A model generated the notes under the pieces. It saw only the letters and a program-made list of their open reading frames with translations. It was not told the origin of the DNA and did not search any database. 64,000 nt of DNA from Narcine bancroftii (taxonomy: Eukaryota): the NCBI RefSeq assembly GCF_036971445.1, contig NC_091470.1:187674001-187738000 (forward strand). Reading direction: 5' to 3'. This document shows, piece after piece, positions 784 to 53,804 of the stretch. Numbering within the stretch: the first letter of the stretch is position 1; every line of letters begins with the position of its first letter. Both the position numbers and the translations under genes were made by a program.

Positions 784-1732
784 TTGTAGATTTAACGGGC
801 GGTACTCGTCCGAGATCCCTGGGATACTCTCCTCGTCGCTGCCGGTGCTGACCCTTCGCCTCGCCGTGCCCCAGCTGCTCACCTTCCCTCCTGTGCGGCC
901 CCTGACCAGTACCGGGATCCTGCTGTGTGGCAGGATGCGGATGGGCCGATAGGCCACCCCCTCCAGCTGTTGGGTAAGGGCGGCCAGTGTTTGGTCAGGG
1001 CTGGGGCTGCTCCAAGCAAGGTTGTCAAAAGGTAGGTCCTCGCTCCCGGCTTCCGAGTCTGATCGGGTCCGCAGCGAGGAGGTGGAGAGGGAGCGGGGTG
1101 CCGAGCCAGGGTTGATGGCCCAAGAACTCAGGGAGGAGCTGGTCCTATCCAGCTGCCCGCTGCTGGACTTGCTGCGAGACAGTCGCCCAGAGGCCAGGGC
1201 ACTCGCCAGGCGCCGCGGGACCCTGCAGACAGCGTCGTACTCGTAATCAGAAACCCGCAGGGCGCTGCACCCAGCGCAGTTACGATTCGTGCAGGGACTC
1301 CAGCCCCCCTCACTGCCTTCTGACCAGCACTCGTAGCCAGCCAGCCGCATGTCATTCCGCAGCAATGCCGCGTAATCACCCTCTGCCTCCTCCTGGCCAC
1401 CCGCCATCTCCGGGGGCTGCCCGTGGAGCCGGGACAGGCAGCTGGCCAGCTGCCTCTTCTCAGTCAGCAGCCGGTGCACCCTCTCCAAGGACAAGGCTTG
1501 CACGCGGGCGATCACGCTGTCGAAGCGCTGCACCCTCTCCAGCGCCGAGGCGCACTTGCCGCAGAGAAACTCGCTGCCTTCACCCCGGGTCATGCGATAG
1601 CCCAGCACGTGGGACAGGACCACCCGCAGATTGACCGGAGCCCGGACGCTGAAGATCCATCGTCTCCGGTTCCCCTTCAGCTCCACGCCACACACACGGC
1701 AGACCTCGTTCATCTCCGCTGCAAGGCAGGAC
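784..1732 (-). CDS. Myomegalin (PDE4DIP)/CDK5RAP2-family gene, large N-terminal SMYLE-type exon; further exons are expected left of the window
   Basis: Translation MNEVCRVCGVELKGNRRRWIF...LRVVLSHVLG...EFLCGKCASALERVQRFDSVIARVQALSLERVHRLLTEK matches the recalled N-terminus of the short myomegalin isoform (CRICARELCGNQRRWIF...EFACSKCAFMLDRIYRFDTVIARIEALSIERL). It also has a second Cys cluster (CAGCSALRVSDYEYDAVCRVPR) and an EB1-binding SxIP motif (HSRIPV). Acceptor ttccattggttggcag| at 1733, ATG at 1713, phase-0 donor CAA|gtaagt at 783. Confidence 0.85.
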
Positions 1733-1934
1733 CTGCCAACCAATGGAAGGAGAGAGATGTGACAACCTGGATTGTTCAGGCCCCAGCCTGAATTTTGCTT
1801 CATAATGGCTCAAGCCTGAAATGTTGGTTAAGTACCTTCATCTATGCTACGTAATTTAATGCTGGTTGATCTGCTGAGATTCTCCAGCATTGTATTTTTA
1901 CTTCAACCATGGTGAAAGCAGTCTTTCGTGTTTA

Positions 1935-3181: not shown

Positions 3182-3186
<5 letters not shown>

Positions 3187-12478: not shown

Positions 12479-13005
12479 TCAGTCCCCCACGTTGACAGGG
12501 ATAATTTGCAATGGATCGCTGGACCTCCATGGACAGAAGAAAGGGTGGATGCGTTCCTGAAAATTGGCTTGGAAAACAAACAGCTTCTGTTTGGTGTCTG
12601 TGTCATGAAATGAGACATACCCCTCGTCAAGGTTCAGGTAAACACCGACGTGGGTGGGCTTCTTCTGAAGGTTCACCACTATATTTGCCTTGTCTTTCGC
12701 CTCGTAGATGTCCCAAAAGCGCCCAAAGCACCAGAAGCCTTGTTCCGGGCACAGGATGACCTTGCCCTTGCGATTCACCGACTCCCTGACCACTCCCAAG
12801 TCCCAGTTAGTGGACCCCTCCACCGACACCTCCCAGTAGTGCTTGCCCTTCTCAAAGAAGTCCGTACCCAGGATGAAGGGGTAGCGATCGAACCTGGCGG
12901 GGCTGTTGGTGACATTGTGAAAGCTGCCTGGTGCACAGACTCCAGTCTGGTCATCGGACACCTTCAGGTTCCCGTTGGCTGTCTCGGGGTCCAGGTGAAC
13001 TGTAA
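12479..13005 (-). CDS. BTN-like terminal B30.2 (PRY-SPRY) exon
   Basis: VTVHLDPETANGNLKVS...RFD...GKHYWEVSV...WDLGV...VGVYL...VSFHD...HPFFCP, with LDP, YWEV and VGVYL motifs. Acceptor ttcacag| at 13006; TGA at 12479-12481. Confidence 0.95.
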
Positions 13006-16000
13006 CTGTGAATAGAGTGTTGTCAGGCCGGCGAATCTCTACTGTGGTCAAGAAGCACTCCTGCCATGCCCAATAAATCAATCCCAGATCTGCCCTCATT
13101 TCCAGTTCCGATCTGCATGAAATTTAACATTTATCAGAGCTCATTCCAACACCCTCCTCCCACTGTGGTAACAAGAACCCTTGAGCCTGGGGTGAACAAG
13201 ACCTTATGAGCAGAAATACCGTATTTGTCAGTGTATAAGATGGTATTTGAATCTTAAAAATGTCACCCCGAAACCAGGGTTGTCTTGTACGCCAAGTAGA
13301 AAATCCAAATTTTAATATTGCAGGATTCACATGGACACAAAACACTTGCATAACTCACACTGTCCTACTGCTAATTTTTTTTCAACTGAAAATAAATAAG
13401 CAAATTAATTTAAACAATTACAATGTGTTATAAACCTGTCTAACATACTGTGTATACTCGTGTAATAGTCGAGCTTTTTGGACAAATTTTTCAGGTCAAA
13501 TTTGATGGGGGTATTGACTTTTCCATGGGCCATACTTTTGACTGGGTACTTTTGAGCTCGGATGGCGAGTCTGGGGAGTTGGGACCTCAGATGGGTGGGC
13601 AGCCGGGGCCCAGGAGAGGGTCCGTGGCCGGGGTGTTGGGAGCTCGAAAGGGCAGGGGTGGGAGCCCAGGAGAATGTCTGTGGTCGGGGCATTGGGAGCT
13701 CAGATGGACAGGCGTTCAGGCTGAGGACTCAGGTTCGGGAGCTTGGATGGGCGGGCAGTCGGGGCAAGGATCCATGGTCAGGAAGGGCAGGAGCCCCGGT
13801 GGACGGGTGGTTGGGGCGTCGGGAGCTCGGATGGGCGGGCAGTCATGGCAAGAATCCGCAGTCAGGGCCTTGGATAGAGTGTGTGGCCGGGGCGCTGGGA
13901 GCTCGGGTGGGACCCTAGGGAGCTGCAGTGGCCGGGTGGCCAGTACGAGGATCTGAGATTGGGGCGCCAGGAGCTCAAGTAGGTTCAGTCGGGGCATCAG
14001 GATCTCAGATGAGTGGGCAGTCGGGTCAAAAACAGGGGGGGGGGGGATCATGAGCAAAATGTAATCTTTGGCCAAAAAAAGGGTTGGCTATTACACAGGA
14101 TCAACTATTACACAAGAATATACGGGACCTTAAAACAGCACAGCAAACAAAACTGAGAGCAATCGCCAGTCACCATTTGCAACCGCTCATGAACAGTCTC
14201 AGCACTGCCCCGTGGGGTCCATCCGCCTGGTGTTGGCTCTGTACAGGCTTTAAACGGCCTGTTAAAGGAGCCAATGGTGGTTCATTTTAAAAATATGCCA
14301 ATAAAATTAAAACCTTTACAGGGTCATTTGCTTTTAAAATAATGTGACAGCTTCACTGTACAAGTGCCAGACTCGCTGTGATCTTATACAGCGAGTGTAG
14401 CTCAGAATCTACATGTAGTGGAAATTTTGGGGTCATCTTATACATGAGTTGCCTTATGTGCTGACATGTATGGTAGGCTGTTCAGCCGACTGAGTCTGCC
14501 TCGCCATTTTAATCATGAGCCTAGCCGACCATTTTCCCACTCAGGCCTTCTCCCCATAATCTTTGCTGCTGTGGGTTGACCTCACTCCAGGAATGCCAAC
14601 TGTGTTCTGTGTAACCCTCCTCGACTCGGCCTCACTTCCTCCGAGAGGAGGTGGGCTTCAGGCCCGTGAATAAACTGTAACATCCCCCCACACCACCCCC
14701 CCCCAAAACCACCCTCACTCAGCTTCATCCTTACCTGAATGTCGCACCATCTTGTCCCACTCTAGAGAGAGAGAGTGCATTAGTGCTGATCCATGAGACT
14801 AGATTCACCAAGTGGCCATGCAGCCTATCAAACCCAGCCCAATCCATGGTTGCCCTCCACCTAGATCCACAGATTGAAAGGGGGTGGGGGGGGGGGGGGG
14901 GAAAGAGAGAAACTGGTGAGGACAGACTGGTGAGGAGGAGGGAAAACTGGTGAGGCCAGACTGGTGAGGACAGGGGGAATTGGTGAGAGACTGGTGAGGA
15001 CAGGGGGGAAACTGGTGAGGACAGACTGGTGAGGTCAGACTGGCAAAGAGGGAGGGGGAACTGGTGAGGACAACCTGGGTCATGAACCTCACAATCTGCG
15101 AGCTTGCTTATTTATACCGCAGACCTCATGCTATTAACCAGGATTTAATTTTTTCAGCTGCCCTTGGGGAGGGGTGGAACCATATCCTGGAATCAGGAAT
15201 CCCGTTATATGTCCACAACATGACCCTTGTGGGAGTTTTCACACCCAACTCCTGATCGCAACCCTGCCTGTCCATTTCAAAGTGAGATTCCCTAGATCAA
15301 CGGTCTGGGGAGAGGAAGTAATTTCCAGAACGTCTTACCTATGGAGTGGAGAAGCTTGTCATATTCTGCAAGAGATGGATTCAGATCGTACATTAATATT
15401 TGGCAGTTGCTTGAACAATGCCAACCAGAAGTCACTCCTAACACACATCCCATAATCTCAGCTCCCCCACCCTCTCCCCCACCGGTTCCTGCTAACCCTA
15501 TCTCCCTCAGGACCACCTTTCCCCTCGCCTACCTCTGCTTCCCCTGCCTCTTCCTAATCTCCGCTCCACACCTACCCTTCCCTCCTCTCCCTCACCTCGG
15601 CGTCCATCTATTCCTCCCCTTCCCTCTGCTCCCCCCTTCTCTCCAGTCCTCTCCCTCACCTCCTCCATCCATTCCTCCCCTTTCTTCACCTCCGCCCCTC
15701 CCCTTCCCTCCAATCCATCACCACCCCTTACCTCCACTATCACCTCCACTCCATCTCCGCTCCTCCCCTCCCTTCCACTCCTTCCCTTCCCTCATCTCTA
15801 CTCCTCCCCTTCATCTCCACTCCTCCTCTTACCTTGACCTCCATCCATTCCTCCCTTTCCTCTGCGCCTCCCCTTCCCTCGTCCCTCACCTCCTTTCCTC
15901 TTTCCCTCCACTGCCTCACCTCTGCTCCTCTATCTGTACTTCCCCTTCCCTCACCTCCTCTCCTCCCCCTACATTCCTCCCCTTCCCTCTGCTCCCTCCT

Positions 16001-19000
16001 TCTCTTCACTGCCTCACCTCCTCTCCTCCCCTTCCCTCCCCTGTCTGTTCCTCCACCTCTCCCTCACCTCTGCTCCTCCACCATTTCTTCCCCCCTCCCC
16101 ACGGCTCCACCTCTGCCCAGACTACACATTCTCACAGCAATGTACACACCAGCATGTGGGAGTGAAATAAAAGAGTTAAATTTAGAGATCATACCGGAGC
16201 AATCCCTACCTGATTTGGCAGCAAACCTTTCCTGTTCTGGAAGCAGAATAAAAAATGTTAAAACCCAAGCCCAGATCCCACTCCCCCAGACCTCCCCCAC
16301 TAACCACAGACACACACCTCCCTCAACCTCAATCTCTCTGCCTGGTCTGCCCCCAACACCAGGTTACAATCTCTTCTCTCCCGACATGAGCCGCTGATTC
16401 AGCCCCTTTGAGCCCTGCAGTTCAAGTGAATGAATTTTATTCATCTTCTAACCTTTGCATTGGTACCCCCCCCCCTCCTCCCCACCATTCAGACTGCTCA
16501 AAGTTTATGGGGTCCCCTTCCTTCTGAAGCAGTTAAGCTTTGGTTCCTTCTGCACTGCTCTCCTACTGACTCCATAAAAACCTTTTAAAAATTGCTTCTT
16601 AAATGTGCTGTGACCTGCCAGGGGTGCCGTAGGGCCCTTTTTGAGAACATTTGGGCTATAGGAAGTGAAGGGGCTGCAGTGAGAGGTTCTCATGGAACTT
16701 CCTTCGAAGAGAGGGCAGTGAGAGAGAGAGACTTGCACAAACCCAGTCTTCCCAGCTCAAAGGAACGTGTCCAACTTCTGAAAGCGCTCAGGGCACCCTC
16801 TGGTCAACGCCACGTGACGCTGCTCTCTCTGTCCTTGCGTGTGTATCAGACCCTTCACAGGGTCTGAGAATGAGGCCCCACCAGTCTGCTGGAAGGGGAG
16901 GTTTTAGATACAGTAAAGCCCCTGGTGTCCAGCTCCTGTGGGGATTGGTAGATGCCGGATACGTGCATTTTCCGATTTCATTGAGACTTTCTCTTACACT
17001 AATTACACCTGCATTAAAAATAAACAGTTTGAAAGACAAAAATACTAGACTACAAGCTAGCTACTGCTTTCTGCTGCCCGTCCCACAAACTCTACAATTC
17101 CGGATGCCAAATTCAGTTTGTGAAGGCGACTGTCACAGTCGCCAGGAGGTGTGTAGCAGTCACATGAAAGCCTGACTCCAAACTAAACATCGCATGGTGG
17201 AATACAGAGATACAGAGTCGTATTCCCCTGGAGAAAAATCGCGCACAATTTAAGGAGGAACTATGGCAAATTTGTTAGGGTGGCAGGCTTACCTGCAACA
17301 TATTGGTTCACAGATCTAGTTACACCATTTCTAAATAGAAGGAAGGAAAAAATCCGTACAAATAGAGGAACGATTGAGATAAAGGAAGTGGGTCGGGGCG
17401 CAGACGACATTCTTGTTTCGCATCTTTTTTATTTTACTTTATGTTACTCTGGGCTTACAATTTGATTCCTTTAACCATATAACAATTACAGCATGGAAAC
17501 GGGCCTTCTCGACCATTCTAGTCAGCACCGAACTAAGTCCTCTCCTCTAGTCCCACCTACCTGCTCCTTGCTCATCCCCCTCCCATCCATACACCTATCC
17601 AATTTTTCCTTAAATGGCAAAATGGACCCTGCCCCAACTACTTCTCCCGGAAGCTCATTCCACATGGCCATCGCTCTCTGAGTGAAGAAAGTCCACCTCA
17701 TGCAACTTTTGCTCCTTAACCCATGATCTCTTGTTTCAATCTCTCCTACCCTCAAGGGAAAAATCTCATCTACGTCAATCTTAATACTTCGATATATCCC
17801 CCCTCAACCATCTACGCTTCAAGGAATAAAGTCCGAATCTGCTCAATCTTTTTTTGTAATCTAGATTCTGAAACCCAGGTAACATTTCCATAAATCTTCT
17901 CTGCACCCTCTTCCCCTTGTTGATATCCTTCCTATAATTCAGTGACCAGAACTGCACACAATATTCCAAATTTGGCCTCACCAATGCCTTGAACAGTCTC
18001 AACATCACCTCCCAACTCCTGCATTCTATGCTTTGATTTATAAAGGCCAGCGTACAAAAAGCCTTCTTCACCACCCTATCCACATGAGGTTCTACCTTCA
18101 GGGAACAATGAACCGTTAGTCCTCGATCTTTCTGGCCCACTGCGTTCTTCAGTACCCTCCCGTTTACTACGCATGTCCTGTTTTGATTTATTTCTTCCAC
18201 ACTTCTCAGCATTAAACTCCATCTGCCAACTTTCGGCCCACTCTACCAAGTAGTCCAAATCCTCCTGCAGTCTCTGAAATTTACTAATTTACCACCCCTT
18301 TATGTCTGTTTCATTTACATCAGCTTCTCCTTGTGATAATAGGGTCTGGAAGGGAAGGGAGAGGGGCGGGCGTGGGGGAAAATCATTGTTTGAGAAGGTT
18401 GGATTTGTGAGTCTTGGAAAATCAAGAATATTTGGAAGTAAAAACGAGGTGCACTTTCCTGGGTGGGAAAGGGGGTGGTGGGTGAGGTCTGGACTCTCTC
18501 ACCCAGGGAAAGTGCATGTGTAACGTGTCACCCTCTCCTTTCTCAGTGTACTGATCACCGCGTGGCCACCATCTGGCTCGCCTGCCAGGTGGTCACTGCC
18601 AACAGCCTCTCCCACATGACTGCAATGCCTTCTTATCGGTGTAACCCCCACCCATCTTCGTCTCAGCGAGACCAAGTGTCCGGCGGCATAACTGGATGGG
18701 TAGGTATGGCTCGTTTGCCTTGGTTGGCAGCCGGCCTAAGGCCCCTTTTCCACCGGCATCCCAATGAATTGGCCGTGCCGTGTCCTGGGATAGGAAGCCT
18801 CTCATGCCGTTTCCACCAAGCCACCCTTAACTGGGGGACAATAATGGCTTTTCCACTGAGTGCAACTCATCCTTTAACTGGAAACAGGCAACTTTCTGCT
18901 CTCCCTCTTCCACTGGTTTTATCAGCAAACGTTGGTGATATCAGTATGGGTAGAGGCGATTAATTCCCGGTGTGAAATGACGTTATTTGACGCCGGCTTT

Positions 19001-22000
19001 CGGATCGGGTGCCAGTGCAAAAGGGGCTTAGGAGGTAACCTCTGATTTCAAACGCAGGCAGATGGGGCTGTTAGCCTCGTCAGGCCATCCACCTACAAAC
19101 CGAAGACCTGGCTGTCATCTCCCCAGCTTGCTGGGCCACGGCAGATACACCCCGGGTATAAAGGGTGGGGCCAGTACTACACACGCTGCACTCCCCCTTA
19201 AAATAATCGAAGGTCGTGCCTGCGTCAACCATCCTTCCTAAATCTTCGATCGCGAAGCCAAGCATGATGATTAGATAATAAATGCACAACAAAGCCTAAT
19301 CTGGGGTGGTACAGTCTGAAGGACCAGCAGCCGAGAAGAGCATGCCCACCTCCCCATCCACCCCTACCGCGGCCCCACCACACCCTCCCCACCAGCAGCA
19401 ACATCTGCTCCTTACCCATTCTCTGCAGTAGATCCTCTTTCTCTGAAAAGGAGAGAAAGAGCATCAATTAGACCAGGCGTTGCTGGCGCAAGGTTGGCAC
19501 CCTTTGGTGAAGCCGAAACCCTACCGGGGTAACTAATGAGGGATTACAGATTGTATTTTGAACAGAGGTTTACTAAAACCACAATGCGTCAAAACGACAT
19601 AATCTATACAGAACTACATCTGAACATACTGCAGGGTATGCGCCACTTAACGTGCACGATATGTTCTGTGAGACTGGGCGTTATGCTAGGTGCATGTTGG
19701 CCAAACGCCATACTATATACTTAGCAAAGTTATATGGTGTACCTATAAACTTCTTATTTGTAAATAGGGATCAGCATGGCGACCTAAATAGAGCTATGGG
19801 GAGAGAGCGGGGGCAGTAGGATCAGTGTGGGGACTGATACAGGGCTGTGGGGAGAATGCGGGGAAGTGGGAACAGTGTGGAGACTGATATGGAGCTGTGG
19901 GGAGAGAGTGGGGCAGTGGGATCAGTGTGGGATTGATAAGGGGCTGTGGGGAGAGAGTGGGGCAGTGGGATCAGTGTGGGAATACAGTCTACAATTTCCT
20001 ATAGATAGCAATCGCTTTTTATAAACTGTTGCGGTCGCTTGCGGTAACTGAATAATTATGGGAGAACAGACGTATATGTGATCGAGCTTTGTCTGAACAG
20101 ACATTAGGCGGTGGATACCTGTATTTACATTGTTGGAAATTTGAAATAAACAGTAAACAACACTGCCCCTTTGTATACCACACTTAACCCAAAAGAGGGG
20201 GCAGGCTGTCGGTTCGTCCAGAACACTCGACCGTCCTCCTCCTCAACCCACCAATAGCCAGGCCCCATAAACAACTCGAGTGACCCACCCACCCTCCCCT
20301 ACTGTACTGGGTAACCGTAAATCAAGAAGTGTGGGGAGAGAGCGGGGGCAATAGGATCAGTGTGGGACTGATATAGGGCTGTGGGGAGAGAGTAGGGCAG
20401 CGGGATCACTGTGGGGACTGATACAGGGCTGTGGGGAGGGAGTGGGTCTTGGATCTGTGTGGAGTCTGATACAGGGCTGTGGGGAGAGAGTGGGGCAGCG
20501 GAATTAGTGTGGGGACTTATACAGGGCTGTGGGGAGAGAGTAGGGCAGTGGGATCAGTTGGGAATGATATGGGGCTGTGGGGAGAGAGAGCGGGGGCAGT
20601 AGGATCAGTGTGGGAATACTCAGCTAGAACATGAGGAGCAGGCCCTTCAGGTTGGCAAAGTGGGGCTGGAACCTGTCCCATTGGCGCTCTCCCCTGCGCT
20701 TACCTTGTTTGCATTGAGTCTGTTCCAGAGCTGCAAAGGGGAAGGGAGGGGACAAATACAGGGGGAGAGAAATTAACATATCAAAGACACTGGCTGCTCT
20801 GCGGTGACCTGTGTGACACTCGTCAGGAAGGAGCCACAGCGACCACACCTCTCGAGAAGACTAGGGACCACCATCACGTCAACCTGCCACAGGAGCTCCC
20901 TCGAGAGCGTCCTGCATGCTGTAGACCCTCGGATCGGAGGTCAATCCACAGGCCCAAAGGTTTGGCAGAGAAGATCAATAGAATCACCCTTTCCCCACCA
21001 CCCCACCCACCATCGATGTGATCTACCGGGATTGTTGTCTGAAAAGGGCGCGCAAAATCATTGCGGGCCCCTTCCACCCCGCGCACACAGCAGCTGTGAG
21101 GAGATACAGGAGGATCAGCACCTTGTCCACCGGGCTGAGGAACAGCTTCTTCCCACGCGCAGTGAGAACAGCTGAATGTCCGAAATAACAATGGGCACTA
21201 ACCCTCTAGTTTTTATATTTGTATACATGTACTGTATATGCCTTGTCTGCCTGTATGTGTATGACGTCTGGCTGTGAACGCCGGGTCAACAGATTGTACT
21301 TCTACAATCCAATGTCAATAAACTTGACTTTGAGTGGCAGGGAGCCTGGGGTCAGTGATGGGCATTTAAAGAGAGAGCTGGCTACTGGGAAATAAAAGAG
21401 GGATTGCCTCATTAGGAAGGCACAGCAGCGCGCCTGCACTTCCAAGGAGACTGAGCAGGGCCCCCACTTTGAAAATATTTCACGGGGGCACAACTGAGAG
21501 GGTTCTGTCTGGCTCCGACGTCAGGAGTCAATACAGAAGATCGTCAAAATGGCTGAGAAGATCACTGGGGTCTCCGTTTCCTCTCTCGACGATATTCACT
21601 GGCAGTATTGCTGAAAAGGGCCTTAAAGAATTATTGAGAATCCTTTCCGTCTGTTCAGCTACAACAGTCAGCACTGGTGCCTGTTATAGCATGACGTTCA
21701 GATTTATGAAAGGCATCGATAAAATTGACGTAGGCAATTCATTTCCACCGGTAGGTGAGACTAGAACCAGGGGACATAGCCACAAGATCTAGGGGAGTAG
21801 ATTCAGGACGGGAATGAGGAGGAACTGCTTTTCCCATGGGGGGGGGAGGGGTGAATCGGCGGGATTCGCTCCTCGCTGAAGCAGTGGAGGTGACCTCAGT
21901 AAACAGGGTTTAAGACATTGGACAGATTTTTACAAAGTAGGCAAATGTAGGTGAAAAGGGAAGTCGGTGGAAATGAGCCCGTCATCAGATCAACCGTGAC

Positions 22001-34421: not shown

Positions 34422-34733
34422 CATTACTGATGTTTCGGGCCTGAACCTATCTTCAAGATAAAAGCAAAATCCAGGAAGGCGTCCCCTGTATCCAAGGTAC
34501 TGATACAGGGCTGTGGGGAGAGAGCGGGGCTGTGGAATCAGTGTGGTGACTGATACAGGGCTGTGGGGAGAGAGTGGGGCTGTGAGATCAGGGTGGGGAC
34601 TGATACAGGGCTGTGGGGAGAGCGGGGCTGTGGATCTGTGTGGGGACTGATACAGGGCCGTGGGATCAGTGTGGGGAGGGGGCAGGGTCCAGACCAACAG
34701 ACAAAAGGTGGTCAGTGGATCTGATAAGAGGAA

Positions 34734-34933
34734 NNNNNNNNNNNNNNNNNNNNNNNNNNNNNNNNNNNNNNNNNNNNNNNNNNNNNNNNNNNNNNNNNNN
34801 NNNNNNNNNNNNNNNNNNNNNNNNNNNNNNNNNNNNNNNNNNNNNNNNNNNNNNNNNNNNNNNNNNNNNNNNNNNNNNNNNNNNNNNNNNNNNNNNNNNN
34901 NNNNNNNNNNNNNNNNNNNNNNNNNNNNNNNNN
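34734..34933. other. Assembly gap (200 N)
   Basis: Run of N; the round size suggests the true length is unknown. Confidence 0.99.
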
Positions 34934-36437: not shown

Positions 36438-36474
36438 CTTGCGTTCCCTCTCCGTCCCAACTCCGTCAGGGAAA
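36438..36474 (-). other. 37-nt exon of uncertain assignment (tapasin cytoplasmic exon or BTN 5'UTR exon)
   Basis: Strong sites ctttccccttctgtccccag| and AAG|gtaagt. Reads VSLTELGRRGNA in phase 1 and FPDGVGTERERK in phase 2. Confidence 0.5.
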
Positions 36475-39937: not shown

Positions 39938-40125
39938 GGCAATTCCAGGGGGCGGGGAGGGAGGCAATTCCAGGGGCGGGGAGGGAGGCAATTCCAGGGG
40001 CGGGGAGGGAGGCAATTCCAGGGGCGGGGAGGGAGGCAATTCCAGGGGCGGGGAGGGAGGCAATTCCAGGGGCGGGGAGGGAGGCAATTCCAGGGGCGGG
40101 GAGGGAGGCAATTCCAGGGGCAGGG
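39938..40125. repeat. 24-bp minisatellite (ggcaattccaggggcggggaggga)
   Basis: About 7-8 near-perfect units. Confidence 0.92.
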
Positions 40126-40184
40126 AAGGAGATGAAGTACAGCAACCAGTGAGAGCCCACCATCACTCTCCACACTTACCGGCT

Positions 40185-41245: not shown

Positions 41246-41347
41246 CCTCAGGCAACAACCAGTAGTGGAGCAGTTTCAGGATTCCGTGCAGAAAATAGGC
41301 ACAAATCAGCATCCCCACTACCTCTTCAAACGAAGGCCATGAAACTC
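41246..41347 (-). CDS. TAPBP: Tapasin exon 6 (transmembrane)
   Basis: Hand translation GVSWPSFEEVVGMLICAYFLHGILKLLHYWLLPE, compared with human GLSGPSLEDSVGLFLSAFLLLGLFKALGW. Boundaries ctttccag| and G|gtaagt; 102 nt. Confidence 0.9.
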
Positions 41348-44300
41348 CTGGAAAGACATCAGGAAGGTGAGCTCCCTGACATCGGCACAGGCTCAGTTCC
41401 AGAGCACTGGCCAGGACAGGATGGGGCTCTGATGTCTAAAGACTGGCCAGGGACTTGGGGTATGGGCTGGGTGGAGATGAGGAGGTTTGAAATCGTGGAT
41501 AGACCTCTCTGGGCGTTAAGTGTGGATGGTGGGAACGTGGGGAGTGTGGCCAGGTTCCCTGGGACAGAGGCATTGGACGTTCCTGAGAGGTCAGGAAACG
41601 ATCTTCACGAATGGCTGACAGTGCCTGACAGTGGGAGGGAGCTCCGCACGGTGGGAGAGGTGGCGAGGGAGCCCCGCGGTGTGGGAGCAGCGGTGAGGAA
41701 GCCCCGCATAGTGGTAGGGGTGGTGAGGGAGCCCTGCGCAGTGGGAGGGGCGGTGATGAAGCCCCGAGCAGCGGGAAGGCCAGTGAGGGATCATGCACTA
41801 GAAGGGGCATTGAAGGAGCCCTGCACAGTGGGAGGGGCGGTGAGGGAACTCTGCATGGTTGAAGGCGAGTTGATCCATGAGTCGCCCTCTTTACCTGCCA
41901 CCTTCAAGGTCAGGCTCCTCCTGACCCCTCCCTTCAGGGACACATGATCGACGTGACATGTGTAGACGGTACCGTGATCGGCCATGGTCGGTGTCACGGT
42001 GATCCCGCTGGTCAAGTTGAATGTCCCGTCACTGTTTTGCTGGTGCCCGCTCTGCCAGCTGTTGGGGAGGAGCTCAGCGCTGCTATTTCCAGGGATCCTG
42101 CGTGTCCAGGTCACGGTGACATCCAGTGGGTAGTAGTTGGCCACCTCACATAGGATGTTCTGGGCTTCACTCGGGCTGAGATACAGGGGGTCCGGCTTCA
42201 GCACAAGTTTCGGTGGCTCTGCAGAGACCAGCAGGAGACAGCAGTGAAACTTCTGGCTTCCCCCCACCCCCCCTCCAATGCTGCTGGGTAGGTCCCATTG
42301 GCTGTAACCCACAGTCTGGCCCCCTCTCCCTTGCCCAGAGGTCCCACAGTGTCAGCGGGCTGTTCCCACGCAGGCTGGCCATAAAGTCCCAGCAGGACTG
42401 CAGAGAGCCTGTCTTGTTACCACACCCTGGTCCTAGGCAGCGCGAGGGGGGGGGGGGCGTGGGGGAGGGGAGGGGTGGGGGGGGGGAAGGGAGGGGTGGG
42501 GGGGTGGGGGAGGGGAGGGGAGGGGTGGGGGGGTGGGGGGGGGGGAAATGATGGACCATCATGGTGTCTGTCTGTCGGTGTCGGTCTGTCGGTGTCGGTC
42601 TGTCGGTGTCGGTCTGTCGGTGTCGGTCTGTCGGTGTCGGTCTGTCGGTGTCGGTCTGTCGGTGTCGGTCTGTCGGTGTCGGTCTGTCGGTGTCGGTCTG
42701 TCGGTGTCGGTCTGTCGGTGTCGGTCTGTCGGTGTCGGTCTGTCGGTCTGTCGGTCTGTCGGTCTGTCGGTCTGTCGGTCTGTCGGTCTGTCGGTCTGTC
42801 GGTCTGTCGGTCTGTCGGTCTGTCGGTCTGTCGGTCTGTCGGTCTGTCGGCGTCGGTCTGTCGGCGTCGGTCTGTCGGCGTCGGTCTGTCGGCGTCGGTC
42901 TGTCGGCGTCGGTCTGTCGGCGTCGGTCTGTCGGCGTCGGTCTGTCGGCGTCGGTCTGTCGGCGTCGGTCTGTCGGCGTCGGTCTGTCGGCGTCGGTCTG
43001 TCGGCGTCGGTCTGTCGGCGTCGGTCTGTCGGCGTCGGTCTGTCGGCGTCGGTCTGTCGGCGTCGGTCTGTCGGCGTCGGTCTGTCGGCGTCGGTCTGTC
43101 GGCGTCGGTCTGTCGGCGTCGGTCTGTCGGCGTCGGTCTGTCGGCGTCGGTCTGTCGGCGTCGGTCTGTCGGCGTCGGTCTGTCGGCGTCGGTCTGTCGG
43201 CGTCGGTCTGTCGGCGTCGGTCTGTCGGCGTCGGTCTGTCGGCGTCGGTCTGTCGGCGTCGGTCTGTCGGCGTCGGTCTGTCGGCGTCGGTCTGTCGGCG
43301 TCGGTCTGTCGGCGTCGGTCTGTCGGCGTCGGTCTGTCGGCGTCGGTCTGTCGGCGTCGGTCTGTCGGCGTCGGTCTGTCGGCGTCGGTCTGTCGGCGTC
43401 GGTCTGTCGGCGTCGGTCTGTCGGCGTCGGTCTGTCGGCGTCGGTCTGTCGGCGTCGGTCTGTCGGCGTCGGTCTGTCGGCGTCGGTCTGTCGGCGTCGG
43501 TCTGTCGGCGTCGGTCTGTCGGCGTCGGTCTGTCGGCGTCGGTCTGTCGGCGTCGGTCTGTCGGCGTCGGTCTGTCGGCGTCGGTCTGTCGGCGTCGGTC
43601 TGTCGGCGTCGGTCTGTCGGCGTCGGTCTGTCGGCGTCGGTCTGTCGGCGTCGGTCTGTCGGCGTCGGTCTGTCGGCGTCGGTCTGTCGGCGTCGGTCTG
43701 TCGGCGTCGGTCTGTCGGCGTCGGTCTGTCGGCGTCGGTCTGTCGGCGTCGGTCTGTCGGCGTCGGTCTGTCGGCGTCGGTCTGTCGGCGTCGGTCTGTC
43801 GGCGTCGGTCTGTCGGCGTCGGTCTGTCGGCGTCGGTCTGTCGGCGTCGGTCTGTCGGCGTCGGTCTGTCGGCGTCGGTCTGTCGGCGTCGGTCTGTCGG
43901 CGTCGGTCTGTCGGCGTCGGTCTGTCGGCGTCGGTCTGTCGGCGTCGGTCTGTCGGCGTCGGTCTGTCGGCGTCGGTCTGTCGGCGTCGGTCTGTCGGCG
44001 TCGGTCTGTCGGCGTCGGTCTGTCGGCGTCGGTCTGTCGGCGTCGGTCTGTCGGCGTCGGTCTGTCGGCGTCGGTCTGTCGGCGTCGGTCTGTCGGCGTC
44101 GGTCTGTCGGCGTCGGTCTGTCGGCGTCGGTCTGTCGGCGTCGGTCTGTCGGCGTCGGTCTGTCGGCGTCGGTCTGTCGGCGTCGGTCTGTCGGCGTCGG
44201 TCTGTCGGCGTCGGTCTGTCGGCGTCGGTCTGTCGGCGTCGGTCTGTCGGCGTCGGTCTGTCGGCGTCGGTCTGTCGGCGTCGGTCTGTCGGCGTCGGTC

Positions 44301-47300: not shown

Positions 47301-50300
47301 GCGGAGGTTGATGGGATAGAGAGACTTGGATAGATTAAAGAGTGGGGGGGGGGAGTGGGGGCAGATGATATACATTGTTGGAAAGAGTATGGTCATGCCC
47401 TTTGGCAGAAGAAACAGACGGGATTATTTAAATGGGGAGAAAATTCAAAATTCCGAGATGCAGAGATTTGGGCGCCTTCATGCAGGAAGGCCCTGAAAGG
47501 TTAACCTGCAGGTTGAGTCGGTGGGGGAGAAGGTGTGATAGTACAGACCTATCACCAATGTATATAGTTACAGTATCTAGAGTATGTAATGACTGTGCTT
47601 ACAGCGATTGGCTGAGAGCTAAGTCACGCCTATTGTCTGGGCCTTAAAGGATTGTGTCCCTAGCCAGGTCGGATCATTCTGGACTGGTTGGCCACCTGTG
47701 AAGAGCTCCTGCCTTTTACTAATAAAAGCCTTGGTTTGGATCAACAAGTCTTTGGTTCTTTCGACGAGCTCTACAGAAGGCGAATGCAATGTTGGCGTTC
47801 AGTTCCAGAGGGATGGCCTACAAAAGCAGGGAGATGATGTGGAGTCTCGACGAAGCACTGGCAAGACAGTTTTGGACGCTGTATCTGAGAAGAGTTGTGC
47901 TGGCATTGGGGAGCATTCAGAGATTTACTAGAATGATATCAGGATTGAAAGCACTCGTTGGGAGTACAGAAGGGTGGTGGGGAACCTCGTGGAGGTATCT
48001 CAATTGCTGGACAGAGTAGACGTTTCCCACGGCGGGCAAGTCATGGATGAGAGGGCGTAACATCAGTTTAAAGCAGAGATGCGGAGACATTTTTTCAGTC
48101 AGAGGGTTGTGGAGTGTTGCCACAAACAGTGAGATATTTAAGGCAGAGATTGATGAGTCAAGGCATCAGGGAGAGAAAGCCGGGGAGCGGGGCTGAGGGG
48201 ATGGATCCTCTCATGATTAGAATGGCGGGGCAGGCCCAACTTCTGCTCCTGTACGTTGTAATGGAGCAGGAGCCAGCATGTGTTCGATGGATTGAAGGGA
48301 AAACCTACCCAATATCTCCAGGGTGATAGCCTGCTGGATCTGGAAGTTGGAAATGTACAGGGTGCAGATGTATGTCCCCTTAGATCGCACGTCCACACGG
48401 CGCATCAACAGTGAGGCGTTCCCTCGGCTGTGTAGACGGTCAAGGAAGAGCTCAGTGCCCTCCTGAGCTGCGTAGACCCGGTCCTGTGGCCCATGGTATG
48501 CGTAGACCAGGTGCCCGCTGCCTTGGAACTGGTAACGCCACTCCACCCCGAAGCCTGTGGTACGGTCCAGCGTGAAGCCACAGTCCAGTACCACATCCTG
48601 GCCCAGTCTGGCACGGACCACCGATGTGCGGGTGAAGACGTTCAGGACCACTGAGGGAGAGAGAACAGGGGAGGTGAGTGTGATCTGCGATTGGGCGGGA
48701 GGGGGTGGGGGGGAGGTACGGCAGGTACAGACCCCTTCCGAGGCACAAATCCCGGGTACAAGTCACCCACCCTTCCACCCGTGATATCTGACATAAAGCT
48801 CTCCTGCAGTGGGGAGCTCCCTCACTGTTTCCCCCCCCCCCCCACAGTTGGGAACTCTCTCACCATGTCTCCCTGTGGTGAATGTCTGCCAAGCTGCCTG
48901 TCTCCCCTCTGGCAAGCCTTGCTGTATTAACATTGGCTGTGTATTATCTCGACTATCAAGGACACTCCCCTTGGGTATAACTGTATATGCATCTATTGTC
49001 TTTCATTATTGTACCACGAGTTTCTGCCAATAAAAGCCATGATTATTGTTTAACCACATCGTCCTTGTCTACTTCATCAACTGGCACTTCACTCCTACAG
49101 TGGGAGCCACCCGCACTGCCCCTCCCACAGGGGGCTGCTCCCTCACTGCCCCTCCCACAGGGGGCTGCTCCCTCACTGCCCCTCCCACAGGGGGCTGCTC
49201 CCTCACTGCCCCTCCCACAGGGGGCTGCTCCCTCACTGCCCCTCCCACAGGGGGCTGCTCCCTCACTGCCCCTCCCACAGGGGGCTGCTCCCTCACTGCC
49301 CCTCCCACAGGGGGCTGCTCCCTCACTGCCCCTCCCACAGGGGGCTGCTCTCTCACTGCCCCTCCCATAGTCAAGAGCTCCCTCACTGTCCGTCCCCCCC
49401 CACAGTGGGGAGCTCCCTCAACATCAGACCAAGTGCGGAGGGAAGGAGGGAAAGCCACCCTCCACACCCTGCTTGCCCCCCCCACCTGCCCCCAGGGCTC
49501 ACGCAAATGGAGCCAACTCGGCGGGCGGGACAGTGCTGGGTCTGGGGTTACCTGAGGTCTGGTAGGGCGCTGCGTCCTCCTCTCCCCTGGGTCCCGACAG
49601 CACCCGATGCAGGCTGGTCACACTGAAGGTGCGGTCTGGGCTCTGCAGGTAGGTGCTGAACCAAAGTCTGGATTGGTAGGCAGGGGTCTTTTCCTCCTTG
49701 GTCAGCTGGGAGCCCCAGGGCACTGCCGCTTCCTGGGGCGTGTATCTGTTGATCTCACATCTTGGCTTTGGCCTCACACCCCTGGGCTGGCGGAAGCTAG
49801 GGTGTGCTATGACCCGCGAGTCATCTGCACAGACAGGCAAGGTACATTTAGATCCGCAGCACGGTAACAGACCCACGAGTCTGTGGCGCACAATCACATC
49901 CAATTGGCCTACAGCCCCCATTAAGTTTTGAGGGTGGGAGGAAACTGGAAACCCACACAGTCACGGGGAGAACATGCAAACTCCTTACAGACAGCGATGG
50001 TATTCGAACCCCAGTCCCGATCGCTGGCGCTGTAATAGTGCTAACCGCTACGGCAACCATGCAGCCCCTTGTCAAACAACAAAATCTGCAGGCACTCTGA
50101 CTGGAGCAAGACACACAGCATAATTTATGTAATGGAGAGGGTTCAAATCCCTACATCCCTCAAGGTCACCGTACAGGCTGATAGGATAGTTAAGAAGGCC
50201 GATGGGATGCTGGGCTTCATTAATGGGGGGACTGAGTTCAGGAGTCAAGAGGTCACGTCGCGACTCCACCAATCTCTGGCGAGGCCACGCTTGGGAGTAT

Positions 50301-53300
50301 TGTGTCCAGTTCTGATCACCTCATTATAGGAAGGTCATGGAAGCTTTGGAGAGGGTCACAAGATTCACAAGACAGAGGGAGAGAAAGTTGGCCCAACTAG
50401 GCCCAACGAGTCTGTTCCGTAAATCTACACTCAGCTACTCTGCACTAGTTCCAGTTTCTGGCCTTGTCCCCATATCCCTTGATGCCCTCACTAATGAGAT
50501 ACTTGTGTATTTCTTGTTCAAAATACTCCCAGTGATCTGGCTCTACTGCTGTATGCAGCAGCGAGTTCCATGGATCCACGACCCTCTGGCTAAAGAAGTT
50601 CTTCCTAATCTCTGTGTTAAATGGATAACCTCTCATTTTCAGACTATGACCCCCCCTTGTCCTTGATTCACCCACCAAGGGAAACATCTTACCCGCATCC
50701 ATTATCGAAACCTTTCAAAATTCGAAAAGCCTCAATGAGACCTTGTCTCGTTCTCCTAGACTCCAATGAATACAACCCAAGAGCTGCCAAATGCACTTCG
50801 TATATTAGCCCTTGCATTCCGGGAATCATCCTGGTAAATCTCCTCTCCAACAACATCACATCCTTTCTAAGATAGAGGGCCCAAAACTGCATACAGTTCT
50901 CCAAATAAGGCCTCACCAGGGCCCCATAGAACTTCATCAACACCTCTTTACTTTTATACACTATTCCCCTTGAAGTGAACGCCAACATAGAATTCGCTTT
51001 CTTCACTGACGATCCCACCTGGTCATTAACTTTTAGGTTTCCCTGCATGAGGACACCCAGGTCCCTTTGGACATCCGAGGTCTGAATTTTCACCCCATTC
51101 AAACAGTATTCTGCCTGTTTGTTTCCACTGCCAAAATGTACATCTCTCTATGTTAAATCTCATCTGCCATATTTTTGCCCAGTCTTCTAATCTCTCTATA
51201 ACCTTCTGCAACTTTACAGTTTCTACTACACTTCCTGCTCCGCCACCAATCTTGGTGTCATCCGCATATTTGGCCACAAAACCATTCATACCACAATCCA
51301 AATCATTATTAATTGCAGAGCAAATTTATCAGGGTGTTGCCTGGATTGGAGAACGTGTCTTTATGAGGCAAGGTGAGGCTTTTCTCTCTGGAGTGTAGAA
51401 GGATAAGAGGAGACTTGGTGAAGGTCTGCGAGGTTATGAGAGGCATCGAGAGGGTGGCTGTTTCCTGGGGCAGGACCAGCAAACACCAGAGGACGTCTGT
51501 ACAAAGTGAAGGGAGGGAAGTTTAGGGGCGATGTCAGGGGCATGGTTTTTTCTTAAACACCGAGTTGTGGGGGCCTGGAATGCCTTGATGGGGGATGGTG
51601 GTGGAGGCTGGAACATCAGAGAAGCATTTAAGAGTCTCTTAGGCATGTGGATGAAAGAAAAATAGAGAGTTATGGGGTAGGGAGGGTTTAGTACTTTTTG
51701 TATATGGGTCAGCACAACATTGAGGGCTGAAGGGCCTGTACTGGGGCTGTAGTTCTATGTTCTATACGTAACCAACGTTTCAAGCCTGGGACCTTCGTCA
51801 ATCCATGTGCAAAAAGCAGTCTGGCGGCCGAATAACCTGGTGTGGAGGGAGGGGCACAGGCCCTCTGGCAAGAGGTGGAGGTGGGTGGGAGGGTAGAGGA
51901 GAAAAAAGCTGAGAAGCGATAGGGGCGGGAGAGGGGGGATCTGAATGGAGAGGGGATGGGTTGGAGAAAAGGAGAGAGGGATGGGATAAGAGACAGGCGA
52001 GGGGCCAAATTGAAACCAGAGAGGTTGGTGTCATTGCCGCCCCATGGGAGGGTACCAGACATTTAAATTCATGCCGTCCAATCAACCCCGTGTTCTTTGG
52101 AGACTGGGAGGACACCGGGGCACTTGGGGAAAAACCCACTTAGACACGGCCAGATGATAAAAAGAAGACAGCGCCAGATTCAAACCCGGGACTGTACCTC
52201 CTGACCAAAAAGCTTTTCTCTGGATTACGTACAACCTATAGTAATACTGATATAATTTAAATAAATATAAGGGACTGTTACCGTTATAATTTAAATTATA
52301 ATAATTTATAGACAGGTACTCCACGACATGATCATAATTCGGATCAAAGGATTGGGCATATTGAAAGGACGTGCGCACTTGTTAGTCGGCATCCTGGGGT
52401 CTGCAAGCTGGGTGTGGCCATCTTGATTCCTGTGCACTTGCGAGTCTTCAGTTGGCACATGCATGAACGGTTTGCACTTTGGAGGTCAGTGGGCGCAGGC
52501 GTGAGAGTTAAGCGGCCTGAAATATATTTGACTTAGCGCCCTTAAAGGTTGTCACAATGCGGCGGATTAGCCTTGCACTCGTCAACCTTCTTGGGGAGCC
52601 CTGCTGCCCCTTCCTCTGTAACACCTTCAGTCCCCTACACCCTTCCCTGCCTCTGGAACACCTTCACTCTCCTACACCCCTCCCTACCTCCATAATACCC
52701 TCACTTTCCTACACCCCTCCCTACCTCTGTAACACCCTCCATCCCCTGCACCCCTCCCTACCTCTGTAACACCCTCCGTCCCCTGTACCCCTCCCTATCT
52801 CTGTAACCCCCTCAGTCTTCTACACCCCTCCCTTTCTCTGTAACCCCCTCGGTCCCCTACACCCCTCCCTACCTCTGTAACACCCTCACTCTCCTACACC
52901 CCTCCCTACCTCTGTAACAATCTCCATCCCCTACACCCCTCCCTACCTCTGTAACACCCTCAGTCCCCTACACCCCTCCCTGCCTTTGTAACGCCCTCAG
53001 TTCCCTACTCCCCTCCCTGCCTTTGTAACACCCTCAGTTCCCTACACCCCTCCCTGCCTTTGTAACACCCTCAGTCCCCTACACCCCTCCCTGCCTCTGG
53101 AACATACTCCGTCCCCTACACCTCTCCCTACCTCAGGAACACGCTCCGTCCCCTACACCCCTCCCTATCTCTATAACCCCCTCAGTCCCCTACACCCCTC
53201 CCTACCTCTGGAACACGCTCCGTCCCCTACACCCCTCCCTACCTCTGGAACACGCTCCGTCCCCTACACCCCTCTCTACCTCTGGAACACGCTCCGTCCC

Positions 53301-53804
53301 CTACACCCCTCCCTACCTCTGTAACCCCCCCTCAGTCCCTACACCTCTCCCTATCTCTGGAACACCCTCAGTCCCCTACACCCTTCCCCATCTCCTTGAT
53401 CGGAGAAGCCAGGGGAAAGCTACACAGTGAGATGAGTATCGTAATTGAACCCAGTGCACAGCACCACTGCCATTTTGAGCGCCTCTAGTGAGGGAATGTA
53501 TTGCCCCATTCCGCAGACCCCTGCTCTGGGGATGAATCTTTCCTTCCAACCCCATTTCCCACACACTTTAGAATTCCTGGGATCTTACCAAAGACATTCA
53601 GGAGCACAGCAGACTTCACCTCAGCCGGCAGGTCTCGTTCAGAGGAGGGATCCCCTTTCACCTTCCGGTTGGACACTTCACGGAGCAAAAGGAGAGTATC
53701 CGTCTGGATCACGGAACCAGGGGAACTCCCTTTGCCAACTGCATCCTCCACAAGCGTGCAGTCCACCAACGTTCCAACTTCCGGAACCCAACCCTGCCTA
53801 AAAT
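41246..53804 (-). CDS. TAPBP: Tapasin gene span (exons 2-6); leader exon and cytoplasmic tail not resolved
   Basis: Five phase-1 exons join in frame and align in order with recalled human and fish tapasin: DCTLVEDAVGKG, PRCEINRY, FGVEWRYQFQGSG, EPPKL, and TM PSFEEVVGMLICAYFLHGILKLL with the intramembrane Lys. The WRYQF.G.G motif and TM Lys favour TAPBP over TAPBPR/TAPBPL. Confidence 0.9.
41895..42218 (-). CDS. TAPBP: Tapasin exon 5 (IgC1 domain)
   Basis: EPPKLVL...LCEVANYYPLDVTVTW...SGHQQNSDGTFNLTS...YTCHVDHVSL...LTLKVA. Boundaries tctctgcag| and G|gtaaag; 324 nt. Confidence 0.93.
42566..46109. repeat. 3.5-kb CpG-rich satellite (14-bp tgtcggcgtcggtc, with 8- and 22-bp variants), running into a gap
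   Basis: Direct inspection; lies in tapasin intron 4. Confidence 0.95.
46110..46425. other. Assembly gap
   Basis: Run of N. Confidence 0.99.
47534..47775 (+). mobile_element. Solo LTR with 5-bp TSD GAAGG, inserted in a degenerate CR1
   Basis: TGTGA...CTACA termini; gaagg at 47529-47533 and 47776-47780; AATAAA at 47721. Confidence 0.8.
48309..48650 (-). CDS. TAPBP: Tapasin exon 4 (IgV-like domain)
   Basis: VVLNVFTRTSVVRARLGQDVVLDCGF...FGVEWRYQFQGSGHLVYAY...GNASL...GTYICTLY. Boundaries ctccctcag| and G|gtaggt; 342 nt. Confidence 0.93.
49113..49368. repeat. 30-bp minisatellite (gggggctgctccctcactgcccctcccaca)
   Basis: About 8-9 near-perfect units in tapasin intron 3. Confidence 0.93.
49552..49824 (-). 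CDS. TAPBP: Tapasin exon 3 (N-domain, second Cys)
   Basis: DDSRVIAHPSFRQPRGVRPKPRCEINRYTPQEAAVPWGSQLT...WFSTYLQSPDRTFSVTSL. Boundaries tgtgcag| and G|gtaacc; 273 nt. Confidence 0.88.
50440..51305 (-). mobile_element. CR1 LINE fragment
   Basis: KYADDTKIGG, WQMRFN, RDLGVLM, LVRPYLENCMQFW, RTRGGHSLKM, FFSQRVVDPWNSL. Confidence 0.88.
52610..53390. repeat. ~37-38-bp minisatellite (tgtaacaccctcagtcccctacacccctccctacctc)
   Basis: Reverse complement of the family at 40-710. Confidence 0.88.
53589..53804 (-). CDS. TAPBP: Tapasin exon 2 (N-domain, first Cys, editing loop)
   Basis: FRQGWVPEVGTLVDCTLVEDAVGKGSSPGSVIQTDTLLLLR...LLNVF. Boundaries tcttcccag| and G|gtaaga; 216 nt. Confidence 0.88.

What the first reader, a model, noticed from the sequence alone, without database searches (positions are those of the whole stretch)
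784..53804. Tapasin, butyrophilin and a myomegalin-family gene in one head-to-tail array: a slice of a primordial MHC
Seen: three co-oriented minus-strand genes. Known: TAPBP is an MHC gene (peptide-loading complex), and BTN/BTNL genes, which act as gamma-delta T-cell ligands and co-regulators, sit in and around the MHC in tetrapods. Inference: this is the MHC of an early jawed vertebrate, probably a cartilaginous fish, where a complete B30.2-bearing BTN directly abuts tapasin. This links alpha-beta antigen processing with a putative gamma-delta ligand, an adjacency that differs from the human TAPBP-ZBTB22-DAXX/RGL2 neighbourhood.
Basis: partly seen in the sequence, partly recalled or inferred. 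Interest (0 to 1): 0.75.

Follow-up and report, generated by a model that had tools for sequence, protein, structure and literature searches.

The report
Ray MHC: tapasin beside relocated butyrophilin
These are three real, already annotated genes of the immune-gene (MHC) region of an electric ray; the butyrophilin sits next to tapasin here but not in the sawfish or white shark gene lists, so the pairing is likely a reshuffle in this lineage rather than a relic of the first MHC.

Summary
Observation confirmed. The window holds tapasin (TAPBP), a spliced IgV-IgC-TM-B30.2 butyrophilin and the SMYLE-domain gene si:ch73-95l15.5, all on the minus strand, in the MHC of the electric ray Narcine bancroftii. 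BTN-MHC linkage in sharks and rays, and the alpha-beta/gamma-delta 'supra-complex' idea, are already published (PMC12841164). The block lies 2 Mb from a class I gene and 3.8 Mb from TAP-like genes and PSMB8. In the sawfish list TAPBP is followed directly by si:ch73-95l15.5, and in white shark by CLIC1. 'Directly abuts' is not shown: the 200-N gap hides tapasin's last exon, and the BTN leader exon lies on an unplaced 78-kb contig. Flanking gene order matches sawfish, so the join itself is likely right. Not found in print: this BTN is a conserved shark-ray lineage with six 27-nt linker exons and 0 of 7 BTN3 phosphoantigen-pocket residues; si:ch73-95l15.5 is likely the MHC-linked whole-genome-duplication sister of PDE4DIP and CDK5RAP2. 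The scan had earlier noted tapasin exon 1 and the neighbouring SOUL gene in this genome. Largely ordinary.

The parts
53589..53804 (-). Tapasin (TAPBP) exon 2, N-terminal domain. Exon 1 (leader) lies outside the window at window-equivalent 73962-74027
   Evidence: 100% tblastn match to P0001; splice sites read
49552..49824 (-). Tapasin exon 3. The position of human Cys95 (ERp57 link) is Thr
   Evidence: Matches human tapasin chains but no TAPBPR chain in PDB; alignment
48309..48650 (-). Tapasin exon 4 (IgV-like) with the conserved N-glycosylation sequon
41895..42218 (-). Tapasin exon 5 (IgC1)
   Evidence: Pfam C1-set
41246..41347 (-). Tapasin exon 6, transmembrane helix with the TAP-contact lysine (Lys432, aligned to human K408)
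36438..36474 (-). Tapasin exon 7, missed by the RefSeq model. It is 37 nt in the assembly; an RNA contig has one more base in a C run, which keeps the frame seen in other rays
   Evidence: Splice scan; loose ends at 36437 and 36471
34734..34933 (.). 200-N stretch that behaves as a scaffold gap. Tapasin exon 8 is absent from the whole assembly; the BTN leader exon is on unplaced contig C366 (78,348 bp), which likely belongs here
31881..32228 (-). Butyrophilin IgV exon
   Evidence: Pfam V-set; RNA joint to IgC in 3 of 3 RNA-type runs, 0 in the DNA run
30713..30994 (-). Butyrophilin IgC exon
   Evidence: Pfam C2-set_3, E=4.5e-24
24871..24999 (-). Butyrophilin transmembrane exon
   Evidence: IgC-TM loose end and TM joints
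14735..22216 (-). Six 27-nt phase-1 linker exons (22216-22190, 20730-20704, 19442-19416, 16236-16210, 15365-15339, 14761-14735); the first is skipped in a minor form
   Evidence: Predicted; all joints in 4 of 4 RNA-type runs, the skip in 2 of 4
12479..13005 (-). Butyrophilin B30.2 (PRY-SPRY) exon with stop codon
   Evidence: Pfam PRY and SPRY; joint 13005-14735
784..1713 (-). First coding exon of the si:ch73-95l15.5 orthologue (four-Cys zf-AD-like finger, SMYLE_N, SxIP motif); eight further exons lie left of the window

Best explanation
This is a stretch of the electric ray's MHC holding three functionally independent genes, and the butyrophilin likely came to lie between tapasin and si:ch73-95l15.5 through a local rearrangement rather than by ancient pairing. 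Tapasin likely works as in other vertebrates: an ER chaperone that holds class I, docks on TAP through its transmembrane lysine and is retrieved by a KxKxx tail, probably without the covalent ERp57 link. The butyrophilin likely acts as a B7-like surface regulator of T cells; its B30.2 domain is predicted not to sense phosphoantigens the way BTN3 does. si:ch73-95l15.5 likely encodes a non-immune EB1-binding coiled-coil scaffold, the MHC copy of the family that includes PDE4DIP and CDK5RAP2. Shown: gene structures, splicing, gene order, trees and residue states. Inferred: all functions, and the direction of the move.
For: Flanks read CYP2K - TRIM - VPS52 - GPANK1 - TAPBP - [BTN] - si:ch73-95l15.5 - TRIM - NELFE - SKIV2L - CFB/C2 - EHMT2 - SLC44A4 - TRIM - TRIM - ATF6B - BTNs. 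Names were recognised from translations; 11 of 13 C5 exons tested had a fitting Pfam hit, two of them the proteasome exons. This is the sawfish chr34 order, except for the BTN, one extra TRIM, and the CYP strand. Sawfish has no gene annotated in the 32 kb between TAPBP and si:ch73-95l15.5, but has one BTN just upstream of ATF6B; the ray has no BTN exon in that interval. White shark TAPBP is followed by CLIC1. The devil-ray orthologue's model runs into a TRIM gene. The TAP-like genes and PSMB8 lie 3.8 Mb away. Cartilaginous-fish BTNs form their own group (SH-aLRT 97), apart from the group holding turtle and cat BTNs (98). 0 of 7 BTN3 pocket residues are kept. The SxIP motif is present in 24 of 28 relatives.
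Against: I could not obtain the sawfish BTN next to ATF6B, so its orthology to this gene is untested. The ray has another 200-N gap exactly in that interval. In the sevengill shark (Heptranchias) the orthologous BTN, si:ch73-95l15.5 and tapasin share one chromosome and have RefSeq numbers within 14 of each other, which would fit an old linkage; in sawfish, though, consecutive gene numbers lie up to 0.4 Mb apart. The white shark list carries few gene names. Both trees used here are quick trees without bootstrap.
Confidence: 0.72

Rival explanations
1. TAPBP - BTN - si:ch73-95l15.5 is the ancestral elasmobranch order, and sawfish, white shark and devil ray lost or moved the BTN.
For: The BTN is an old lineage with orthologues in batoids and sharks (SH-aLRT 96). 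Heptranchias accession numbers for the three genes are close.
Against: It needs several independent changes. Basking shark tapasin and the si:ch73 orthologue have consecutive accessions on one 153-kb contig (weak). Sawfish has a named BTN and white shark an unnamed same-strand gene just upstream of ATF6B. Accession closeness does not imply adjacency.
Confidence: 0.17
2. The adjacency is functional: tapasin and this BTN are co-regulated, coupling class I peptide loading to a gamma-delta ligand.
For: Same strand; both are immune B7-type Ig proteins; both are spliced in RNA-type runs.
Against: Separate leader exons and upstream regions. About 55 kb of GC-rich satellite plus LINEs lie upstream of the BTN leader. 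The pair is not seen in two other elasmobranch lists. No read-through joint is listed (not a strong test). Butyrophilins persist in squamates, which lack gamma-delta T cells (PMC12841164).
Confidence: 0.06
3. The arrangement is an assembly artefact: the BTN belongs at the gap near ATF6B (C5:187,025,271), or other genes hide in the window's gap.
For: A 200-N gap lies where sawfish has its BTN. Sequence is demonstrably missing at 34734-34933.
Against: No N and no long tandem repeat lie between the BTN and si:ch73-95l15.5. Both flanks are colinear with sawfish. C366 shows no recognisable gene besides the BTN leader, in a limited check.
Confidence: 0.05

Closest known systems
Elasmobranch MHC as mapped by Verissimo et al. 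2023 (PMC10751288): sawfish chr34, white shark chr19
   Same: Same framework order around TAPBP (VPS52, GPANK1, si:ch73-95l15.5, NELFE, SKIV2L, CFB/C2, EHMT2, SLC44A4, ATF6B, BTN cluster); 11 sawfish rows are named butyrophilin in the supplement.
   Different: Here one BTN lies between TAPBP and si:ch73-95l15.5 and none upstream of ATF6B. The main text never mentions butyrophilins (0 hits).
BTN-MHC linkage across jawed vertebrates (Marenco et al. 2026, PMC12841164)
   Same: Reports BTN and class I on one chromosome in Hemiscyllium, Carcharodon and Hypanus, and proposes an ancestral alpha-beta/gamma-delta gene complex.
   Different: In the two of four parts I read it works at chromosome level and gives no gene order next to tapasin and no exon structure.
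Human tapasin (TAPBP)
   Same: Best PDB match (174 bits against 122 for TAPBPR); TM lysine, glycosylation sequon and KxKxx tail present.
   Different: Cys95 is Thr. PMC5824609 reports Cys95 missing in its non-human sequences too.
Mammalian BTN2A1 / BTN3A1
   Same: IgV-IgC-TM-helical linker-B30.2 over the full length (298 and 254 bits).
   Different: Not a one-to-one orthologue. The linker is six 27-nt exons, whereas mammalian BTNs use mostly 21-nt heptad exons (recalled). The BTN3 phosphoantigen pocket is absent.
PDE4DIP isoform MMG8/SMYLE and CDK5RAP2
   Same: SMYLE_N domain, four-Cys N-terminal finger, SxIP motif and coiled coil.
   Different: A separate, shorter gene (683 aa) with no further Pfam domain. 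It sits in the MHC and has relatives in sharks, rays, bony fish, a caecilian and squamates; no mammal or bird is among the 18 species-named hits of 28 (weak for absence).

Membership tests
Tapasin (TAPBP) versus TAPBPR/TAPBPL | Closer to tapasin than to its paralogues | tested here: met
   PDB 174 versus 122 bits. Groups with named tapasins; the ray's own paralogue on C29 is 32% identical. No named TAPBPR or TAPBPL sequence was in the tree.
Tapasin (TAPBP) | Transmembrane lysine that contacts TAP (absent in TAPBPL per PMC5824609) | tested here: met
   Lys432 aligns with human K428 precursor / K408 mature
Tapasin (TAPBP) | C-terminal di-lysine ER retrieval signal | tested here: met
   Read from RNA loose ends: the exon 6-7 junction in one run, the exon 7-8 junction in two. 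Absent from the RefSeq model; 79 of 104 relatives of at least 400 aa have it.
Tapasin (TAPBP) | Cys95 for the ERp57 disulphide (human feature) | tested here: not met
   Thr141 at that position; reported missing in non-human sequences, so it does not define the family
Tapasin (TAPBP) | Encoded in the MHC | tested here: met
   Class I at C5:189.78 Mb, TAP-like ABC exons at 191.50-191.57 Mb, PSMB8 at 191.60 Mb
Tapasin (TAPBP) | Binds class I and TAP, and edits peptides | not testable with these tools
   Needs biochemistry
Butyrophilin (BTN/BTNL) | Leader-IgV-IgC-TM-linker-B30.2 in one transcript | tested here: met
   Chain of splice joints in RNA-type contigs; leader on C366; Pfam domains
BTN3-type phosphoantigen sensor | Basic B30.2 pocket H381, H408, W421, K423, R442, R448, R499 | tested here: not met
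   Ray has Y, D, K, I, E, N, C (0 of 7). Mapped indirectly through the BTN2 equivalents given in PMC12152872 and cat BTN2A2 in alignment A1.
Gamma-delta TCR-binding butyrophilin | IgV domain binds a TCR V-gamma chain | not testable with these tools
   No orthology to mammalian BTN2A1 or BTNL3 to lean on
Myomegalin/SMYLE family | SMYLE_N domain and EB1-binding SxIP motif | tested here: met
   PF18615 at 66 bits over a cut-off of 25; S[RK][IL]P in 24 of 28. That SxIP is the EB1 motif is recalled.
MHC-paralogon ohnologue set | Paralogues linked to NOTCH1/2/3 regions | tested here: inconclusive
   Two paralogues: one 1.4 Mb from NOTCH1 and within 0.2 Mb of a phosducin-family gene, one on the chromosome of a NOTCH2-like gene but 23.5 Mb away. 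Their names (CDK5RAP2, PDE4DIP) rest on recall and position, not on a named match.
Core 'adaptive MHC' / class Ia region (PMC10751288) | Lies within the tight class Ia-TAP-PSMB block | tested here: not met

The most novel reading that the evidence does not exclude
This butyrophilin is the one elasmobranch BTN kept as a conserved single-copy lineage since sharks and rays split, perhaps since chimaeras, while its paralogues turned over. It is the ancestral MHC-encoded selecting ligand for shark gamma-delta T cells and signals through a 9-residue-repeat linker and a B30.2 pocket for a ligand other than phosphoantigen.
Probability: 0.15. Interest if true: 0.65.

Novelty: new member of a known kind. 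Interest (0 to 1): 0.27.

Why it matters
A conserved tapasin-BTN pair would tie alpha-beta and gamma-delta recognition together at the origin of the MHC. The evidence points instead to a lineage-specific neighbourhood inside a known MHC map. What remains useful is modest: a conserved shark-ray butyrophilin lineage as the best candidate for testing gamma-delta TCR binding in cartilaginous fish; corrected gene ends for two RefSeq models; placement of an unplaced contig; and a likely new MHC-paralogon gene family (si:ch73-95l15.5 / PDE4DIP / CDK5RAP2).

Tried and rejected
MHC class II beta family search of the own genome: 0 matches and no control rang, so uninformative. Run search: no holder on record as RNA; X4-X7 are RNA by guess only, and I use their GT-AG joints, not their depth. 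Candidate 27-nt exon 13385-13359 and candidate acceptor 13112: rejected, RNA joins 14735 straight to 13005. Candidate tapasin last exons at 35233 and just left of the gap: rejected, the RNA shows another exon. IgV-only homologue search returned 2 of 75 candidates and missed orthologues found later, so the absence of a sawfish hit means nothing. RefSeq accession closeness as proof of adjacency: rejected on the sawfish calibration. IgV-only PDB search ranked CD276 and TAPBPR above tapasin; exon 3 and the full length reverse this. The C29 paralogue could not be named TAPBPR or TAPBPL. The Atlas search of the C1 paralogue gave only zf-AD leads under 0.9. Rfam on 4 of 8 C366 stretches gave 0 hits; TRF on C366 timed out. 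The linker's hydrophobic periodicity shows no peak near 100 degrees in 3 of 3 proteins, a crude test. The careful BTN tree did not finish; the quick tree was used. The N-terminal SMYLE tree does not resolve the paralogues (long branches). No structure or complex prediction was run. Candidate NELFE and SOUL exons and two C1 exons had no Pfam hit (4 of 16).
Full report
1. What is in the window. Six of the seven segments scanned hit the expected Pfam families: SMYLE_N/zf-AD, PRY-SPRY, V-set (twice), BTN-type C2-set_3 and C1-set; the transmembrane segment had none. The window is G000:C5:187,674,001-187,738,000. Homologue searches returned 100%-identical proteins named tapasin-like, butyrophilin 2A1-like and 'flagellar attachment zone protein 1' of Narcine bancroftii on a contig of C5's length. 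All three genes are therefore already annotated. The third gene's best relatives are named si:ch73-95l15.5 in sawfish, devil ray, white shark and sevengill shark.

2. Tapasin. P0001 maps to five exons in the window plus a leader 10 kb to the right. Full length it scores 174 bits against human tapasin and 122 against TAPBPR. In a tree of 20 of the 120 listed relatives plus the ray's only close paralogue (C29, 32% identical) it groups with ray, shark and chimaera tapasins. It keeps the transmembrane lysine and the glycosylation sequon but not Cys95. PMC5824609 (passages) says the lysine is absent from TAPBPL and that Cys95 is missing in its non-human sequences. The RefSeq model reads through the exon 6 donor and has no ER signal. 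RNA-type contigs instead splice exon 6 to 36474-36438 (one run) and that exon to a further one (two runs). The RNA has one more base in exon 7 than the assembly, giving a KxKxx end like other rays. The last exon is not in the assembly (0 matches at up to 1 mismatch).

3. Butyrophilin. A splice scan found seven candidate 27-nt phase-1 exons between TM and B30.2. RNA-type contigs confirm six of them and every joint from TM to B30.2 in 4 of 4 runs, with the first skipped in a minor form in 2 of 4. The IgV-IgC joint is in 3 of 3 RNA-type runs and not in the DNA run. The runs are RNA by guess and come from one study. The protein matches BTN2A1 and BTN3A over its length. The IgV+IgC tree had 146 rows: every ectodomain match of at least 175 aa among the listed hits, with P0311-P0326 left out, plus six own-genome paralogues. 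In this quick tree the gene groups with devil ray, skate, sevengill shark and catshark proteins (SH-aLRT 96), a chimaera protein is weakly its sister (85), and the ray's other BTNs fall elsewhere. All named cartilaginous-fish BTNs lie in one group (97), apart from the group holding the named turtle and cat BTNs (98). Mapped through the BTN2 equivalents in PMC12152872 (passages), 0 of 7 BTN3 pocket residues are kept.

4. The gap. The BTN leader exon, whose peptide resembles the shark orthologues' leaders, lies at the very start of unplaced contig C366, 78,348 bp. It is followed by about 55 kb of GC-rich 50/31-bp satellite and LINE pieces. So 34734-34933 hides at least tapasin's last exon and likely all of C366: the two genes are probably neighbours, but tens of kilobases further apart than drawn. 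The join is supported by synteny on both sides.

5. Neighbourhood. About 1 Mb around the window was fetched. To the right lie GPANK1, VPS52, a TRIM and CYP2K-like genes; to the left a TRIM, NELFE, SKIV2L, CFB/C2, EHMT2, SLC44A4, two TRIMs, ATF6B and a BTN cluster. Names were recognised from translations; Pfam fitted 12 of 16 test exons in all. This is the sawfish chr34 order in the supplement of PMC10751288, apart from the BTN, one extra TRIM and the CYP strand. BTN IgC exons occur at 11 places on C5 between 178.5 and 187.7 Mb. Class I genes are at 189.78-191.08 Mb, two opposed ABC-transporter genes at 191.50-191.57 Mb, PSMB8 at 191.60 Mb and a second proteasome gene at 191.64 Mb. The window is in the MHC but outside the tight class Ia block.

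6. Is the adjacency old? Sawfish: TAPBP is followed by si:ch73-95l15.5 with nothing annotated between, and a BTN lies 0.42 Mb away, upstream of ATF6B. The ray has no BTN exon at that spot, though a 200-N gap lies there. White shark: CLIC1 follows TAPBP, and an unnamed same-strand gene precedes ATF6B. Devil ray: the orthologue's model is fused to a TRIM. Lungfish: RGL2-TAPBP-three unnamed genes-DAXX-ZBTB22, as in human. Against my reading, the sevengill shark's three genes share a chromosome and have close accessions, and orthology of the sawfish BTN is untested. I put a move in the electric-ray line at about 0.7.

7. The myomegalin-family gene. It has a four-Cys finger, SMYLE_N, an SxIP motif (24 of 28 relatives) and coiled coil. 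SMYLE/MMG8 binds EB1 and AKAP9 (PMC13678657, passages). The ray has two paralogues. One lies 1.4 Mb from NOTCH1 and near a phosducin-family gene; the other is on the chromosome of a NOTCH2-like gene, 23.5 Mb away. By recall of the human map these are likely CDK5RAP2 and PDE4DIP, which would make the window gene the MHC member of a whole-genome-duplication set. Its link to TAPBP is the better conserved one: adjacent in sawfish, one gene apart in white shark, and on one 153-kb contig in basking shark.

8. What is in print. PMC12841164 (parts 1-2 of 4 read) reports BTN and class I on one chromosome in three elasmobranchs and proposes the same alpha-beta/gamma-delta complex. PMC10751288 (parts 1-3 of 7, term passages, supplement parts 6, 7, 16, 49 and term searches; figures not seen) maps the region, and its main text has 0 mentions of butyrophilin. 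PMC9586880 was seen as passages only. Searches (listings only) showed no title on a tapasin-BTN pair or on elasmobranch BTN exon structure. Searches returned 0 papers on si:ch73-95l15.5 or a PDE4DIP/CDK5RAP2 paralogon, and one search returned 2 unrelated ones. The library lacks most subscription papers, and the supplements of PMC12841164 were not opened.

9. Verdict. Real genes, right region, known linkage; the headline adjacency is likely derived and is interrupted by hidden sequence. Interest 0.27.

Noticed in passing
G000:C366 (L119-L127): Unplaced 78-kb contig starts with the BTN leader exon and upstream region, then about 55 kb of a 50/31-bp GC-rich satellite whose unit resembles the short arrays at window 19793-20614 and 34499-34664. 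It likely belongs in the window's gap.
   Followed up: yes
window 36438-36474: The assembly has one base fewer in a C run than an RNA contig. An assembly error or an allele; it may explain why RefSeq missed tapasin's true C-terminus.
   Followed up: partly
window 14735-22216: The BTN linker is built from six 27-nt (9-residue) exons; the repeat register is kept in shark orthologues at protein level.
   Followed up: partly
window 42563-46107: A 3.5-kb array of a 14-bp unit in tapasin intron 4, next to the 316-N stretch, giving long spurious ORFs in all six frames.
   Followed up: no
window 39935-41144, 25127-26826, 52608-53388, 48-640: Further minisatellites (periods 24-38 bp) in introns.
   Followed up: no
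window 60244-62367, 53971-55017, 36812-39393, 27233-28145: LINE reverse-transcriptase fragments of at least two families (recognised from translations); 60244-62367 is an open 707-aa frame.
   Followed up: no
L047 (C5:185.614-185.620 Mb): A BTN paralogue with in-frame stops in IgV and IgC; L044 and L045 hold identical IgV exons in opposite orientation, suggesting a recent inverted duplication.
   Followed up: no
L063 and L131-L147 (C1:206.2-206.4 Mb): A long myomegalin-family gene near NOTCH1 with a SMYLE-type first exon; if it is CDK5RAP2, that exon type may predate the split of the family.
   Followed up: partly
C5:187,025,271 and 187,408,530: Two more 200-N gaps in the same MHC block; the first falls where sawfish has a BTN.
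   Followed up: partly
G000:C9:222.78 Mb and C396: MHC class I family matches off C5, both with stops inside; PMC10751288 found no class I gene outside the elasmobranch MHC.
   Followed up: no
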